Shown: positions 33,966 through 58,416 of the stretch, piece after piece
How positions within the stretch are numbered: position 1 is the first letter of the stretch
Layout: each line of letters begins with the position of its first letter
Source: Lama guanicoe
Lineage: Eukaryota
NCBI GenBank assembly: GCA_013239625.1
Contig: MU053881.1
Span: 7,835,957-7,899,956, forward strand
Reading direction: 5' to 3'
DNA: 64,000 bases
Notes under the pieces: generated by a model
Told to the model about the DNA's origin: nothing
Databases searched by the model: none
The model's input: the letters and a program-made list of their open reading frames with translations, nothing else
Program-made: the position numbers and the translations under genes

Positions 33966-35304
33966 GGCAACAGGATAACATTTAAATATTACGCTGTGTT
34001 TCTGTTGTCACATTGCCCTCTCTCTCCTCCTAGGCAGGGGTGGAGCTCCGGTGGGTGGCACTTCCCTCCCAGAGAATTTCTCCAAGTCGTGTGTTCCCAG
34101 AGCAACTATATGAGGAAGACGGACAAGGCTAGAAAATTATGTCCCTGTTGCTTCTCCGTCTCATGTCTTACACCATCACTCCCAGACTGAACACTCTGTC
34201 TTTACATCTGGGATCAGTCACGTTTCTTGAAAGATCAAATTAAGTCTAATTTTAAATGGGAAGGAAGGTAAGAGTCTCTTTACCTTCCTACTGAAGAAGA
34301 TATCCTTCTTGGTTCTATTCTGTGCCTGCACGTGGAGTAGGGTTTTAAGAAGCCAGATCCAAGGCTGGATGTGGAAGCCAGTGAGTGGTGCAGCGATGAA
34401 GAGCTTTGTGATGAAAAGGAATTGTATTGGCCTCCCATCAGTGAACTGATTTCTTTCTTTCTTTCTTTAAATAGCATGACAAACAAATGTTGTAATAAGG
34501 TTGTCTTTGGTGTGGTTTCGTGAACTGATGTAATTAAGAGCCATTTGAACTTGGCAGTGCTGCAAGAAAACCATCCAAATCACACCAAACAGAGAAAGCA
34601 CTTAATTAGCAACTTAGGTGAGCGCCCACTCTTGAGCAAGTGGATGTTAAGATTGGAGGAAAGACGGGAGACCCACAGAGGCAGCACACCAAGGCTGGGT
34701 GGTCAGCCAGAGACACATCCCCCCACCCCTTTCCTGCTACCCGTGCATGAGTATTTACCTACCAGCTGTATCCCTGAAATGGGATGTGATTGGCTCTGAC
34801 TGCTGCTGCCGCCCACCTGTTGGCGGGAACGTCAGTGTCCAGGAAAAATGATTGTGTCTTTGGTTCCCTCCAGTTCTCACAAAACAAACATCACCTGGCA
34901 ATTCCTTCTAGATTGATTAGTCACACATTTCATTCCCGTGGGTCCTTCCTGCCAGGTTAATCATTGTTCTAAACAGTGGCAGCATTAATCAGCGTGATAA
35001 CAGTTTCTAGTCATTAACAGCGTAATCAGGTTTTATGCCAACTGGAGGTCCTTTAATCAAACCGTCATGAAGATCGGAAAATCATCCCATGGTGGACACT
35101 GGTTCCTAAGAGAGCCATATGTGCTCAGAGGGAAAACATCCCTGTGTGAGCTTTACTTTGGATCATTTCCAGGGGTCATCTGCAAGGCAAGGGTGAGGGA
35201 AGGCCGTTCTGGTGGAATTCAGGACCTTTGCCCTGAGTCCGCCAGTGTCTCTGACCTCCATGTGTATTGACTTTGATGCTTTTAATAGCTGCACGGGCAG
35301 TCCA

Positions 35305-35471
35305 AGTATTGTGGCTTTGGATCTAGACAGAACTTGGGTTCAAATATGAGCTTCAGTACTGACTGGTCATGGGAACTTGGGAAAATTTTTCACAGGGGAA
35401 TAAATATAATAATCTCTGTAGAATAGTTTAACATGGTGCCCGGTACACAGTAAGTGCTCATAAATGGTAGT
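35305..35471 (+). mobile_element. MIR SINE with an internal deletion
   Basis: ggctttggatctagacagaacttgggttcaaat...gtgcccggtacacagtaagtgctcataaatg. Confidence 0.8.
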
Positions 35472-35475
35472 TTAG

Positions 35476-36178
35476 AAACTGAGACCACTGATTCCCTGAT
35501 AGGCAGGGTCAACGCCCCTACTCAGCCCGGAAGTCGTTTTGGAAGACAGACCATCGCCCCTCTGCATCCCCCATAAGATTATAGGAGTAAAATCTCTGAG
35601 GGGGGAATCAGGTGGGAAGGGGGCAGGGCACAGCCATTCAAGGAATGATGTCACAATTAACACCAAAATGTCAGAAGATTCAACTCCTAGTAGACCTTGA
35701 GGCTCAAGATGGCGGGAGATTGGACTTCTAGTAGACCTTGAGCTTCGTTGTATGTTCATTGTGATATCAGCATGGTAAATGACACTCCTGCAGGCGCCAT
35801 GACAGTTCCAAGGCGAACCACAAAAGGTCATAGTGGGCGGTGGCCCAGTTCCTGGGAATCCCAGCCCCTTCCCCAGGGTAGTTGGAATAGTCCTCCCACT
35901 CGTTAGCATATGAAGCTACTACGCCCATAAAAGCTGGCAACACCAGGCCTCGTGGCCACCTCTCTCGCTCCCTCGTCTTCAGAGACAGCCCGCACTCTGT
36001 CTATGGACTGTGTATCTGCTTTTACTTTAACCTGAGCACCCAACCCCCACACCTCGTGGCCTTTTTCTTGCCTTCTAAAACAGCCTACACTCTATATAGT
36101 ACGTATTTCTCTAAATAAATCTACCTTTACTCAAAAAAAAACCCAAAACAACAACCAAAAAAAACCCAAAACTGAGAC
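35476..36178 (+). mobile_element. Processed (L1-retroposed) class I ERV 3' fragment: post-env tail, PPT, U3-R, poly(A), TSD
   Basis: PPT GAGGGGGGAA 35598-35607; TATA-like CATAAAA 35926-35932; AATAAA 36114-36119; A-rich tail from 36133; TSD AAACTGAGAC at 35476-35485 and 36169-36178. Confidence 0.85.
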
Positions 36179-36192
36179 TAGTGAAATTGTTT

Positions 36193-36463
36193 AAAAATTC
36201 ATAAGATACAAACTGCTATATATAAAATAGATAAATCACAGGGTCCTACTGTATTGCATAGGAAACTATGTTCAATATTTCGTAAAAAGAAAATATGTAC
36301 ATTTAAATATATATATCTGTGTGTGTGTATATGTATTATATATATAAATATATATAATATATATATATGTAAAACTGAATCACTTTGCTGTACACCAGAA
36401 ACTCACACAACACTGTAAATCAACTATACTTAAATGAAAAAATGGAAATAAAAAAAAATTCAT
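36193..36463 (+). mobile_element. 5'-truncated cetartiodactyl-type L1 3' end with TSD
   Basis: aactgaatcactttgctgtacaccagaaact...ctgtaaatcaactatactt followed by an A tail; TSD AAAAATTCAT at 36193-36202 and 36454-36463; TT/AAAA site. Confidence 0.9.
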
Positions 36464-38559
36464 GAAGTCCCAATCTGTTTTCTGGGACTTTAGTGCCAGG
36501 GAGTATATATTCAGAGAGGCAGAAACAAACCAAAAATCTCATAACCACCGATCAGGTGAAAAGGTGGCTCGTGTTCCCTGCTCTCAGAGTGAGTCACTAT
36601 TAGAGTGGCAGGTCTGTGCATAAACAGGTTCCTTCAGGCGCCAAATGACACACCAGCCCTTGTAGCTGTTGTTAAGTTTCATCTCCTAGTGATGGCCATG
36701 GTCCTAAACCCCCAGACCTGCATGTCATCCAGACTCCTGGGTCCTCCCTTCTCCCCGGAGCAGAGCAGACCACTGGGGAGACCACATGTTTCTATCCCCT
36801 TCACTTAAAGCACAGACGGAGCTCTGTGCCTTGACTCCTTTCTCCTGGGCCGACAGCCCGGTTTGGCCTGATCCTACCTAGGATTTCAAGAAGAGCAGGA
36901 CAAAAATCACTGACTACAAATTTTCTGGCCACTTCTTGGTCTCACCTGGTCTTTCAAAGGCTGTTCGGGGAACCCTCGAAGACTGAAGGGAGCATTTGAG
37001 CCAGGGGGCCCCTCCAGGCACTGAAACAGGAGGGCCAAACTCAAAGACTGGAGCGCGGTCTTGGCACCATCTGCCGAACACTTCTCCCCCAGAACACAAA
37101 CATCTTCGTTTAAGACTTCGATAAATGTGTCTCACCCGACCTGTCCAATACAAATTATCAGGGAAATGAAGCCTCTGTTATACCCAGACGTTGGAAAGGT
37201 ACACATTTCAAAAATGCTACAGTAGAAAGCATACATTATAAAATCAAGGACCAGCAACACCCTCTGGGCCCCTGTCAGAGTGTCTTTTCCTTGTAATGCC
37301 AACTCATGCTTAGAAAATGTCTGGAATATTCTCAAGTGCCATTTAAAGGGTCAAGGGAGAGAATCGGGAGTTTTCAAATCTATTAAATCTCTCTGAATTC
37401 ACTGGCAATATTCAGAGCTCACTTTGCATAGGAGAACGCGAGAGTTCTCCTGCTGAGATTAGAGACCTGCAGGTGCCATGAAACAGCATTCGTCGTTCTC
37501 CAGGGAAGGGGAACCCTTGGCTGTGGGTCGGGTACGACTTTAAACAAACAGAATTCTGGCTCACACCACCCTCCCATCAGCGCCTAGAAATCCTCCGTTC
37601 CTCTCCCCACTCCACCCCTGGATCAAATTTGAGGTGAAGTTCAGGTTGGCAGCAGCTTGGCTTCTGCCATCATGTTCAAATTCCACTATTTCTGGCCCAA
37701 ATTTGCTTTTCCTGGCAGACTTGAGCCACGTCCCAATGCAACATATCCACGGCTTTCAAAATTACAGACAAAATCAGCTGGCAAGAGGTGTAGGGGCAGA
37801 GGAGGGAGGGGTGAACAGCCAGGGTAATTGCTGTGAATGGTCCTGTGATGAGGATCTATTTCCAGGAAGTAATCTCTGCTCACTCACTTCCGGTTCAGCT
37901 CTCCCAGCACCAGGAGCAGAGCCATGCTTTTTTACAGACTGTAAGCCCATTGTGAAGTTATGTGTCCTGGCAGTTTGTAAAGTCGTGTTTTCTTTATCTT
38001 TAGTGGTGCCCCAGGCAAGCACACACGTTTGTCCACGCTGTCCCTGACTCATCCAGCAGGACCGTCCCTCCCAGCCTTTCACGGGAAGCCACGCTCCTCC
38101 GGGACCCAGGGCAGCCTCTGAGTCTCCGTGTGTCTCCGGTTGAGGGTCCCCAGCCCATCCCGGGTGTGGTAGGCATGAAGGAGTCTGGAGGATGCAGCCC
38201 TCCCTGAAGGGTTCTGTACATCTAAAAAGCTCTGTGGACTTTGAGGCCGGCCCAGGAAAACCTCAACAAGTCAGCTACCCCTTGCTTTTTATTGGCTTCC
38301 CTATAAACAGCTAGGCCACGGCTGCTGTGGGAATCAGAGGGCAGGCGGCAGTTTCATGCTTGAGGGCTTTTCTCTGGCGCTGGTGCCAAATAGTTGGGGC
38401 CTCTTCTCATAATGCAAGCTTGATTAGCCTGGTGCTCCCTCCGACCTCAACCTTTTGTTGAGGGGAAGAAATATTTATGGCCGAAAGAAATGTAATTCAC
38501 AGAAGGATTATGTACATGAACTGGCATCTCACCCATGATGACAGTGGGACTGGCTGTCT

Positions 38560-41119: not shown

Positions 41120-42135
41120 GTGTATATTATTTATCCGCGAGACTCTTGGGAGGAACCCAGTGGAACCCTCAAAGGGACAATTAAAGAAGATTTAAGGATA
41201 TTTGCACACCCCATATTCATAGTAGCATTTTCTACAGTAGCCAAAAGACAGAAGCAACCCAAGCATCCATTGACAGACGAGTGGATGAGCAAAATATGGT
41301 AAATACACACAATAGAATATTATTCCACTTTAAAAAAGAAGGAAATTCTGACACGTGCTACAACATGATGACTCGAAGGGTAAACCTTAAGGATAAATAT
41401 GCTAAATGAAATGAACGAGTTATGAAAAGACAAATACTGTATGATTCCACTTACATGAGGTACCTTAGACAGAAAATTCAGAGGCAGAATGTAGAATGGT
41501 GGTTGCCAGGGAGTAGGGGAAGGGGGAGGTACTGTTTAATGGATGCAGAGTTTTAGTTTTGCAAGATGGAAAGAGTTCCGGAGATGGGCGGTGGTGATGC
41601 CTGAACAACAATACGAGTATATTTAATGCCACTGATCTGTACACTTAAAAATGGTTAAAATGGTAAATTTTATGTTATGCATATTTTACCACAATTAAAA
41701 ATAATTTTAAAAGAAGGCTAAAGGAGGGGGATATTTACAGAGATTATCGGTGTTAGTTATCGGTGCCAGTGAGCGATGTTTCAGCACAGCAGTAGCAACC
41801 ACGGGAAGCTAATTCACCCACAGACTGAGGGGTGAGCAGCAATGGCGGCTTCTAGAACGAGGTGAGAAGAGCAGCCGTGGGAAAAGGGCCCCCAGCAGGA
41901 GCTTTAGGTATAGAACTCATTCGCAAACTGCAGCCCAGCAGAGAGGAGCTGGGGGACAAGTACCCTGACCCCTGTCCTGCTGCCCATGACTCCCCTGGCC
42001 ACACCCAGCTGGAATCAGAAGGCAGGGGAGGCTGGTGATGTCATCTATTGAGCCGGCCTCCCCAGGGCTCCGAGAAGGGAAGAGAGTGGAGAACAGACCT
42101 GACATTGGGGAGAAGGGACCAGAAAAGATTCAGCG
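41120..42135 (-). mobile_element. Ancient LTR (MamGypLTR/LTR85-like) interrupted by L1, within a split MIR
   Basis: ccctcaaagggacaattaaagaag // ggatatttacagag...ggccacacccagctggaatcagaaggcagggga. Confidence 0.5.
41192..41705 (+). mobile_element. L1MB-like 3' end (ORF2 C-terminus plus 3'UTR)
   Basis: ORF 41120..41302 has HPIFIVAFSTVAKRQKQPKHPLTDEWMSKIW, the L1 ORF2 C-terminus; ends ttaaaatggtaaattttatgttatgcatattttaccacaatt. Confidence 0.92.
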
Positions 42136-47394: not shown

Positions 47395-48070
47395 GAGAAT
47401 CCTTAACTAAAAATAGACTCACCATATGATCCAGCAATCCCACTCCTGGGCATATATCCAGAAGGAACTCTAATTCAATACATGCACCCCAATGTTTACA
47501 GAGGTACTATGTACACTAGCCAAGACATGGAAACAGCTCAAATGTCCATCAACAGATGACTGGATAAAGAAGTTGTGGTATATTTATACAGTGAAATACT
47601 ACTCAGCCATAAAAGGGTGAAATTATGCCATTTGCTGCATTATTGGATGGACCCAGAGATTGTCATTCTAAGTGAAGTAAGCCAGAAAGAGAAAAAAAAA
47701 ATACCATGTTATATCACTAATATGTGGACTCTTAAAAAAAAAAAAGACAGAAATGAACTTATTTACAAAACAGAAACAGACTCAGAGACATGGAAAACAA
47801 ACTTCTGATTACCAGCAGGGGAAGGGGATAGGAAGAGATAAATTGGGAGTTCGAGATTTGCAGATTCTCACTTGTCTACATAAAACAGATAAACAGGTTT
47901 CTTCTGTATAGCACAGGGAACTGTATCCAATATCTTGTAGTAACCTATAATGGAAAAGAATATGAACAGGAGTATATGTTTGTATATGTATGACTGAAAT
48001 ATCATGCAGTACACTACGAACTGACACAACCTTGTAAACTAACCATACTTCAGTTAAAAAATTAAAAAAG
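47395..48070 (+). mobile_element. Younger lineage-specific L1 3' end (ORF2 C-terminus plus 3'UTR), camelid-like, inserted in L2
   Basis: catatgatccagcaatcccactcctgggcatatatcca; agatgactggataaagaagttgtgg; ctgtatagcacagggaactgtatccaatatcttgtagtaacctataatg; A tail; upstream TTT/AAAA. Confidence 0.92.
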
Positions 48071-50019
48071 AAGCAGCTCCTTGGCTTCTGCATTCTGACA
48101 CAAACCCTGGGCTGCTGACCCTGATCTCTGAATCCTGTTCTTGCTACTTCACTCTGCTCTGGAGCATGCTGGTTTACCCAAGGACGGGCCTCGAGGGCAT
48201 TATCTGGTGGGCGAGTTTTATCTTCACAGGCCTGAGCCCCTTGAGGCTGCCTTGTACCTAAAAGGCATCCCCAAACCGCAGTAGTATTCCTTGTGCCTCT
48301 GTAGGGGGTCAGGAGGGGCGTGTTCTCAGCACAGTCGAGTATGGCCCCCCTGCACTCCTTTGCCTGAAAAACCGCTTTTCTGTGAGGATGAAGATGGGGC
48401 TAGAAGTTGTACCGTGGGTATTTCCTTGGTTTAAAAGGAAGAAGGAAAAGCCTTCTCAATCTACGTGATCATGTACATATATGTGCCTTCGAATCGTTGA
48501 AGTTTCTTTGGAGAGAGGTTAAATTTATGTGTGGTTTAACCAAACGATGTATCTCCAGGGGATAGAAAACCACCCCCACCACCCTCATTAAATAGTATTT
48601 GTGATGCACGGGGGGAGAAAAGGAAAGAAAAGAAACGTTGAACCCTGGAAGCTAGCGTGAGAAAACAAAGGGGAAATCGAAATTGTGGATCTGCCAGAAA
48701 CCTGCCACTCACAGAGCCCACAAATCACAGGGAAACAAAGAGAAATGGAAAGATTTGGTATTAAAAACCCATTCTCCCCTGAACCTGTGCCAGCTCTATA
48801 AAACAATTACATGTGATCATACTTGAGGCTTTTCTGAGACACTAATTCTTCTCTTGACGTTAAAATGTTGTGCATGTTGCTTTCAAAATGTTGCACCCCG
48901 TCAAGAAGGGCACGCATCAGAAGGGCAGGCGCAGAGTGGAGGGCAGCTCAGCCCAGCTCCTGAAAACTGGGAAACGTCTGGGATTTTCGTCCTTTTCTCC
49001 CCTGGAAGTTCCTGGAGTTGCTGATTTTTTGACCATGGCGTTGGAATGTCCTTGTCTGGCTCCTGGATGGCTCCCTGGTTGCAGGGAAACCACTCAAAGG
49101 TGGTGGATGGTTCCACGAAGTCCCCCCGCCAAAATACAAGAAAAATTCACCGGGGCTCATGACCAGGAGAAGGTGATATGTCTCCGAGCGTGGCAGGAGC
49201 GGGATGAATGCGCGTGCTCAGCGACTACGGAGAAAGCCCACCCCGGGATCCGATCCACTTGTCCACGTGAAGTTCCTCGTCGAGTTCAGTGGGCCTTTGA
49301 TTTAAGATTAAATAGGGCCCCTGTGTGAAATCGGTTGTTAGTTTTAAAAGCCTTTTCATTTTGACAGGTGAAAACCTCATCAGAATTACCCTGTGCAAAG
49401 ATGTCAGGAAAAATATACAAGAGGAAATTGGAACATGTGATTGAGCCGAGCATGCACTGCCTCTCCCCCGGCGTTTCTGCCCGGCTTTTATTTATTTCTC
49501 CTGCATTTGCTCTTTGGGCCTTTCCCCTAATTGAGGCTGCGATGTAAAGTGCACAAAAGGCAGGTGATTTCACAGCTTTTGGCTCCTTGCTGGCACGGCT
49601 TCATGGGTACGCTTCTCCGCAAGGGGACCCACCTTCGGATCAAATGCAGGGGTATTTCCAAATGGGGCTTCGAGGAGTGGAGCCCAGAGATGGAAAGCCA
49701 AGAAGAAAAATAGGTGAATTAAGTGAAAAGCGTGTTGTGGGCCAATTTAATCAGGGCTAATATATCAGGGCCTCATATTGTTTTTGGAACTGGATTCGGG
49801 AGTAATAGGATCCCTGACAAGTTGTAGCCAGCCCTGCTAACGAGTGACTGCGGAGTTCACAGACCCGTCTGGAGGAAACCGCAACACAGAGCAGCAAGTG
49901 GCAGGTCCGCTCCGGTGGCAAGGGTGGATGCACGGCCAGCTCCCTCTCTCCTTGGCCTCGCCGCCCTTGCCGCTGGTGGGAGACAGAGGCTGGGAGCCGG
50001 GGCTCTGGATCTGTAACGG

Positions 50020-56528: not shown

Positions 56529-56751
56529 CAAAGGACCGGCAAACTATACCTCTGGGCCAAATCTGCCCACTGGCTCTTTTTGTAAATAAAGTTTTATTAA
56601 GACATGGCCACAGCCATTCATTTATATACTGTCTGTGGCCTGCTTTCAAACCACAAGTGCAGAGTTGAGCGCTGTGACAAGGACCAGATGGCCTGCAGAG
56701 CCTAAAATATTTACTCCCTGGCCCTTTACAAAAAGCATTTGCCAGCCCCTG
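56529..56751. mobile_element. MER58A MITE with a degenerate 8-bp TSD
   Basis: ggcaaactata...tttttgtaaataaagttttatt...aaaatatttactccctggccctttacaaaaagcatttgccagcccctg; flanks CTGTAAAC/CTCTGAAC. Confidence 0.92.
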
Positions 56752-58215: not shown

Positions 58216-58416
58216 CAGGGATTGGTTCGCAAGCTGTCTTTGTAAAGAGTCAGATAGTAAATATTTTAGGATTTGCAGGACATGTGGTCTCTGTCCACAA
58301 AGCAGTCATAGACGGGTACGCAGATGAATGGGGGTGGTCGTATTCTAATAAAACTTTATTTATAAAGGCAGCGACAAGCTAGATTTGGCCCATGAGCCAC
58401 AGTTTACCAACTTCTG
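58216..58416. mobile_element. MER58A MITE, opposite orientation to the 56.5-kb copy, internally deleted
   Basis: gtaaagagtcagatagtaaatattttagg...aataaaactttatttata...agatttggcccatgagccacagtttacc. Confidence 0.88.

What the first reader, a model, noticed from the sequence alone, without database searches (positions are those of the whole stretch)
35476..36178. ERV mRNA retroposed in trans by L1: a SINE-R-like element (post-env tail, PPT, U3-R, polyA, TSD)
Seen in sequence: (1) about 110 bp resembling the class I ERV post-env motif (CAGCCCGGAAGTCG...CCATCGCCCC, 35523-35560); (2) a polypurine tract at 35598-35607; (3) an LTR-like U3-R with CATAAAA at 35926 and AATAAA at 36114; (4) 13 nt after AATAAA the element ends at a CA and an A-rich tail begins; (5) an exact 10-bp direct repeat AAACTGAGAC flanks it, and the left copy follows an endonuclease-like TTT/AGAAA. 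There is no U5, 5' LTR or PBS. Established: integrase-made proviruses and solo LTRs have complete U3-R-U5 and 4-6 bp TSDs, and solo LTRs lack the internal PPT side. A U5-less, poly(A)-tailed, 5'-truncated copy is the L1 TPRT signature, as in HERV-W processed pseudogenes. The env-3'/LTR layout also resembles the SINE-R domain of SVA. Inference: this ERV transcript used L1 ORF2p. If many such copies exist, it would be a lineage-specific ERV-derived non-LTR retroposon family that repeat annotation would probably label as plain LTRs.
Basis: partly seen in the sequence, partly recalled or inferred. Interest (0 to 1): 0.8.

Follow-up and report, generated by a model that had tools for sequence, protein, structure and literature searches.

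The report
LINE-1-pasted retroviral LTR fragment
A 700-base non-coding scrap with the layout of a retroviral RNA 3' end, an A-rich tail and a duplicated target site was likely pasted here by LINE-1 machinery, a route already known from primates; whether it belongs to a large family of such copies in this mammal is untested.

Summary
35476-36178 contains about 110 bp of non-coding sequence, a purine tract, an LTR-like stretch with one AATAAA, an A-rich tail starting 15 nt later, and a flanking direct repeat. The repeat is 10 bp exact and extends to 16 bp with 2 mismatches (null: 2 of 4000). Two unrelated database translations match the LTR stretch and lose similarity at the purine tract. This shows that the LTR is repeated elsewhere and fixes its 5' edge near 35608, but those relatives look like solo or 5' LTRs. 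Best reading: a 5'-truncated ERV processed pseudogene made by L1 target-primed reverse transcription, as described for HERV-W, HERV-H and HML-2. An orphan L1 3' transduction cannot be excluded. Loss of U5, the empty site and the copy number were not tested, because no host genome or contig overlay was available. 'SINE-R-like' is an analogy only: there is no SVA or SINE 5' part and no evidence of a family. Verdict: a new member of a known kind, probably in a camelid (host recalled, not shown), of modest interest unless copies prove numerous.

The parts
35471..35478 (+). L1 endonuclease-like target (TT/AGAA variant); the expected nick lies 2 nt upstream of the exact repeat
   Evidence: sequence; TT/AAAA consensus as quoted in PMC5016936
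35476..35491 (+). left target-site duplication: first 10 nt exact, 14 of 16 identical to the right copy
   Evidence: (D8)
35492..35597 (+). 5'-truncated non-coding stretch upstream of the purine tract, likely the 3' end of an ERV internal region (starts at 35486 if the TSD is 10 bp)
   Evidence: position directly 5' of the purine tract; class I post-env resemblance recalled only; no Pfam hit in 3 of 3 frames
35598..35607 (+). polypurine tract, 10 nt
   Evidence: similarity to two database relatives stops here
35608..35955 (+). U3-like LTR part with a 41-nt-period tandem repeat (35664-35742, 82%) and a TATA-like CATAAAA at 35926; the U3/R border is inferred
   Evidence: D2; translated matches P0001 and P0003
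35956..36133 (+). R-like part inside a diverged ~104-nt tandem duplication; AATAAA at 36114-36119 only in the second unit; ends 14 nt after the hexamer
   Evidence: (D9)
36134..36168 (+). A-rich tail interrupted by C, likely an aged poly(A) tail
   Evidence: 28 A, 10 C in 36134-36171
36169..36184 (+). right target-site duplication (first 10 nt exact)

Best explanation
This is likely a 5'-truncated processed pseudogene of an endogenous retrovirus: a polyadenylated RNA ending in the provirus's 3' LTR was probably reverse-transcribed and inserted by L1 ORF2p in trans. Shown: purine tract, LTR-like repeat, AATAAA, A-rich tail, 10-16 bp TSD and a TT/AGAA site. Inferred steps: a provirus, or a host transcript running through one, was transcribed and cleaved about 14 nt after AATAAA, so U5 was never in the RNA; ORF2p nicked the T-rich bottom strand and primed on the poly(A); reverse transcription stopped after about 640 nt; second-strand cleavage 10-18 nt away made the TSD. 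The copy is probably old and inert: it has CpG depletion like the host, a degenerate tail, no coding capacity, no PBS and no 5' LTR.
For: The TSD is far beyond chance (2 of 4000 null; about 9e-4 expected per kb for the 10-mer) and brackets internal side, LTR and tail together. The tail starts 15 nt after the only AATAAA. P0001 (E 1.5e-4) matches 35800-35619 in two frames and has 0 of 22 identities beyond the LTR edge. P0003 (E 1.4e-4) has 19 of 28 identities inside U3 and 2 of 13 upstream. So U3 is a dispersed repeat whose 5' edge is the purine tract. The hallmarks match those listed for HERV-W pseudogenes (PMC5016936, passages) and for an HML-2 retrocopy with a 13-nt TSD carrying one mismatch (PMC3590776, passages). 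Trans-mobilised truncated copies rarely have TSDs of 9 bp or less (PMC2912911 section 14). CpG o/e is 0.43 in the element and 0.35 in the window.
Against: Loss of U5 is not shown: no reference LTR or paralogous DNA was obtained. The last four bases before the tail form a near-inverted repeat with the first four of U3, so the CA could be an att end as well as a cleavage site. The tail is 26% C. The exact repeat starts 2 nt after the expected nick. No empty site was seen. The ERV identity of the 5' 110 bp rests on recall. Trans versus cis cannot be told from one copy.
Confidence: 0.7

Rival explanations
1. Orphan L1 3' transduction: an L1 upstream of an ERV remnant read through its own poly(A) site, used the LTR's AATAAA, and the copy was 5'-truncated before reaching L1 sequence. 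ORF2p would then have acted in cis on its own RNA.
For: It gives identical hallmarks. Orphan transductions are described in PMC7058536 (passages). L1 3' ends are present nearby.
Against: It needs an active L1 directly upstream of a same-sense ERV 3' end. The L1 piece at 36203-36453 is downstream and has its own 10-nt TSD (D11), so it is a separate event.
Confidence: 0.12
2. Member of a self-propagating, SINE-R-like non-LTR family: a short ERV-derived RNA with a defined structure repeatedly mobilised by L1, giving hundreds of U5-less tailed copies.
For: The layout parallels the SINE-R domain (3' env plus 3' LTR; PMC12593883, passages). Finding one copy in a 64-kb window is easier if copies are common (inference).
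Against: No internal promoter or SVA-type 5' module is present (no tRNA; no Rfam match; no tandem array within the element). The copy lacks a full-length RNA's 5' end, so it cannot regenerate the same unit from its own U3 promoter, which would start at R. There is no second copy in the window. Both independent relatives (2 of 2) lack the purine-tract side.
Confidence: 0.08
3. Ordinary provirus remnant or complete short LTR: the LTR ends at this CA, the rest of the provirus was deleted, and the A-rich tract is a microsatellite or the tail of an unrelated tiny insertion.
For: Near-inverted LTR termini; a C-rich tail; a region prone to L1 insertions.
Against: It does not explain a 10-16 bp repeat bracketing exactly the internal side, LTR and tail (2 of 4000 null). 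An LTR ending 14 nt after AATAAA would have no U5 or downstream cleavage element (established retroviral LTR organisation). Integrase TSDs are 4-6 bp (established knowledge).
Confidence: 0.1

Closest known systems
HERV-W processed pseudogenes (L1-retroposed ERV transcripts; PMC5016936, PMC5537654; Pavlicek 2002 seen only as cited there)
   Same: 3' LTR ending at the poly(A) site, A tail, TT/AAAA-type site, TSD longer than integrase makes. Very short truncated copies were the commonest class in one HERV-W dataset, as quoted in PMC5016936.
   Different: A different, non-primate host and a different LTR family. The 5' R-U5 is absent through truncation. HERV-W has 135 such copies among 213 loci; the copy number here is unknown.
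Single retroposed HERV-K(HML-2) locus at 2q32.1, and HERV-H retrocopies (PMC3590776; Goodchild 1995 seen only as cited there)
   Same: Sporadic L1-made copy of an ERV RNA with a truncated 3' LTR, A tract and mismatched TSD. This is the closest match if the copy is a one-off.
   Different: That copy is a spliced, near full-length mRNA with part of the 5' LTR; this one keeps only about 640 nt of the 3' end.
SINE-R domain of SVA (PMC12593883)
   Same: 3' internal end plus 3' LTR followed by an A tail; mobilised by L1.
   Different: SINE-R comes from HERV-K10 and sits in a composite with hexamer, Alu-like and VNTR parts, all absent here. No family is shown.
Artiodactyl class I (ERV1) LTR families of the ERV1-2-LTR_BT / ALTR2 type (names and resemblance recalled; no call confirms them, and the ALTR2 paper search, listed only unrelated papers)
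   Same: Recalled similarity of the U3 motifs and purine tract; by recall those LTRs continue more than 100 nt beyond AATAAA.
   Different: Normally found as solo LTRs or proviruses with short TSDs. No sequence comparison was possible.

Membership tests
ERV processed pseudogene (HERV-W type criteria, PMC5016936) | poly(A) tail after the 3' LTR poly(A) signal | tested here: met
   28 of 38 A, starting 15 nt after the only AATAAA; degenerate
ERV processed pseudogene (HERV-W type criteria, PMC5016936) | variable TSD of about 5-15 bp | tested here: met
   10 bp exact, 16 bp with 2 mismatches; null 2 of 4000
ERV processed pseudogene (HERV-W type criteria, PMC5016936) | TT/AAAA-type insertion motif | tested here: met
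   TT/AGAA variant at 35472-35477, 2 nt upstream of the exact repeat
ERV processed pseudogene (HERV-W type criteria, PMC5016936) | 3' LTR is U3-R and lacks U5 | tested here: inconclusive
   The end lies 14 nt after AATAAA, but no reference LTR was obtained; the translated search over R found no candidate; near-inverted termini leave doubt
ERV processed pseudogene (HERV-W type criteria, PMC5016936) | 5' LTR is R-U5 (full-length copies only) | tested here: inconclusive
   The copy is 5'-truncated, so the feature cannot be scored; no second LTR copy in the window
ERV processed pseudogene (HERV-W type criteria, PMC5016936) | derived from an ERV: purine tract followed by a dispersed LTR repeat | tested here: met
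   P0001/P0004 and P0003 match U3 and stop at the purine tract; the class I assignment is recalled
HERV-W group itself | sequence descent from HERV17/LTR17 | not testable with these tools
   No reference held; the host appears not to be a primate, so membership is not claimed
SVA / SINE-R | hexamer, Alu-like and VNTR modules 5' of the ERV part | tested here: not met
   The TSD abuts the ERV part; no tandem array called in 35476-36133
SVA / SINE-R | high-copy family sharing one 3' end | not testable with these tools
   No host genome; collection scans gave no mammalian DNA
SINE (Pol III type) | tRNA-, 7SL- or 5S-derived head | tested here: not met
   0 tRNA genes and 0 Rfam matches in the window
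Solo LTR or integrase-made provirus | 4-6 bp TSD, no tail, and either no purine-tract side or a second LTR | tested here: not met
   10-16 bp TSD, A tail, purine-tract side present, single LTR

The most novel reading that the evidence does not exclude
A non-primate (probably camelid) class I ERV family that, like HERV-W, spread largely as L1-made, U5-less, poly(A)-tailed copies, with tens to hundreds of them hidden under plain LTR annotation. It would be an independent case for finding which RNA features make an ERV an L1 substrate.
Probability: 0.25. Interest if true: 0.6.

Novelty: new member of a known kind. Interest (0 to 1): 0.3.

Why it matters
One such copy is an ordinary L1 by-product, already described for HERV-W, HERV-H and HML-2. 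It would matter if copies are numerous. PMC5537654 (passages) calls large-scale L1 mobilisation unique to HERV-W and its determinants unclear, and PMC6995185 (passages) reports that close New World monkey relatives were not mobilised. A second, independent lineage would make that question testable by comparison, and would mean repeat annotation misfiles L1-made copies as LTR insertions, which distorts dating of ERV activity.

Tried and rejected
No host genome is held. Pattern scans for the LTR gave 0 hits in viral contigs, 6 in prokaryote genomes, 8 in metagenomes and 0 with a second pattern. None of the 14 loci resembles the element beyond the 13-14 nt pattern, and all have high CpG content, so they were dropped as chance. 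A translated search of viral contigs confirmed 0 of 2 stretches. Protein searches: 1 hit among 19 candidates; 0 of 122 longer proteins for the 5' frame, so no env link; no candidate over R; 1 hit among 1.84 billion representatives. Pfam gave 0 families for 3 of 3 plus frames; Rfam and ARAGORN gave 0. No overlay of contigs on the locus was obtained. Earlier scan findings: none by sequence or words. Paper searches listed no report of L1-retroposed ERVs in camelids or other artiodactyls. The library lacks most subscription papers and Repbase/Dfam entries, and the supplements of PMC8605555, which hold camelid repeat libraries, could not be read. Rejected: the downstream L1 piece as part of the same event (it has its own TSD), a coding role, and a solo LTR.

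Full report
Observation. Between two copies of a direct repeat lie about 110 bp of non-coding sequence, a 10-nt purine tract (35598-35607), about 525 bp of LTR-like sequence with CATAAAA at 35926 and the only canonical AATAAA at 36114, and an A-rich tail (28 A and 10 C in 36134-36171) beginning 15 nt after the hexamer. The repeat is 10 bp exact and extends to 16 bp with two mismatches. These are the only plus-strand copies of the 16-mer at up to three mismatches, and 2 of 4000 random 16-mers from the window had a comparable copy 200-1500 bp upstream. One further exact copy of the 10-mer lies on the minus strand elsewhere. A 10-bp and a 16-bp TSD are about equally likely (ratio 0.3-4.7). The left copy sits in a TT/AGAA context, but the exact repeat starts 2 nt after the expected nick.

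Is it an LTR? No host genome is held, and scans of the prokaryotic, viral and metagenome collections gave only chance hits (14 of 14 loci) or nothing. Indirect evidence came from spurious translations in the protein collections. P0001 matches the minus strand of 35800-35619 in two frames (18 of 28 and 24 of 45 identities) and has 0 of 22 identities beyond that point, where the window continues into the purine tract. P0003 matches the plus strand with 19 of 28 identities inside U3 and 2 of 13 upstream. So the sequence after the purine tract is a dispersed repeat whose 5' edge is near 35608, as expected of an LTR. Both relatives lack the internal side, as solo or 5' LTRs do. This is two loci only, of unknown host. 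P0004 is 77 of 82 identical to P0001, including 21 of 22 flank residues, which suggests the same insertion in two diverged genomes and hence an old family (inference). The element's CpG ratio (0.43 against 0.35 for the window) and degenerate tail also point to age. U3 holds a 41-nt-period repeat and the 3' part a diverged ~104-nt duplication in which only the second unit has AATAAA. The class I post-env resemblance of the first 110 bp is recalled; a search for longer proteins ending in that frame found 0 of 122 candidates and Pfam found nothing.

Host. The window has no obvious gene and almost no young interspersed repeats (three weak self-matches). That fits the camelid table in PMC8605555 (abstract and first part of section 13 read: SINEs about 1.6%, nearly all MIR), and the L1 3' ends look artiodactyl from recall. 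The host is therefore probably a camelid, but no call shows it. Fourteen of 24 listed runs, from six organism codes and five studies, hold 0.60-0.67 of the sampled words of 34900-36900. That share would arise either from 0.9-1.6% divergence or from absence of the element (0.638 expected). It was not resolved.

Mechanism. An integrase makes two LTRs or one complete LTR with a 4-6 bp TSD and no tail (established knowledge). An internal side plus one LTR ending at the poly(A) site, a tail, a 10-16 bp TSD and a TT/AAAA-like site are the hallmarks listed for L1-made HERV-W pseudogenes (PMC5016936, 12 of 23 passages seen). I put 0.7 on a 5'-truncated copy made in trans from an RNA polyadenylated in an ERV 3' LTR. 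Truncated trans copies rarely have TSDs of 9 bp or less (PMC2912911, abstract and section 14), which is compatible. Against it: U5 loss is inferred and not shown, the search over R found no relative, the last four bases before the tail are nearly inverted to the first four of U3, and no empty site was seen. An orphan L1 3' transduction (PMC7058536, passages) gives the same marks (0.12). A provirus remnant with a chance repeat is unlikely (0.1). A self-propagating SINE-R-like family gets 0.08: there is no promoter-bearing head, no SVA module (PMC12593883, passages), no second copy in the window, and the two relatives lack the internal side.

Comparison and novelty. It works like a HERV-W processed pseudogene and meets four of six scored features of that kind; two are inconclusive. 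It is not claimed as HERV-W and fails the SVA, SINE and solo-LTR tests. Sporadic L1-made copies are also reported for HML-2 and HERV-H (PMC3590776, 10 passages). Large-scale mobilisation is called unique to HERV-W with unknown determinants (PMC5537654, 12 of 20 passages) and was not seen in New World monkey ERV-W (PMC6995185, 11 passages). Nine paper searches listed no artiodactyl case, but the library is partial and the camelid repeat supplements were unreadable.

Verdict. A real feature with the mechanism largely as proposed, but of a known kind; the family claim is open. Interest 0.3. The most novel reading, a HERV-W-scale L1-driven ERV family outside primates, has probability about 0.25 and would merit 0.6.

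Noticed in passing
window 36193-36463: A separate 5'-truncated L1 3' end (36203-36453) with its own exact 10-nt TSD (36193 and 36454), 8 nt from the element's right repeat. It is 66-72% like the longer L1 piece at 47862-48072. Two L1-type insertions lie side by side.
   Followed up: partly
window 35664-35742 and 35941-36127: Two internal duplications in the LTR: a 41-nt-period repeat in U3, apparently also present in relative P0001, and a ~104-nt duplication in the R region with AATAAA only in the second unit.
   Followed up: partly
window 34900-36900: The best 14 holders in the run index share only 0.60-0.67 of the words, close to the 0.638 expected if the element were absent from them; uniform 1-1.6% divergence fits equally. 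It could be a polymorphic or lineage-restricted insertion.
   Followed up: partly
window 35309-35470: The left flank looks like the 3' part of an old MIR-type repeat (recalled; no match within the window); the insertion sits at its A/T-rich end.
   Followed up: no
window 47400-48072 and 41180-41710: Two older 5'-truncated L1 3' fragments on the plus strand (family types recalled); no coding L1 sequence was sought.
   Followed up: no
window 56538-56732 / 58239-58408: Inverted pair of an old ~190-bp repeat (74-82% identical), probably two MER-type DNA transposon relics (recalled).
   Followed up: no
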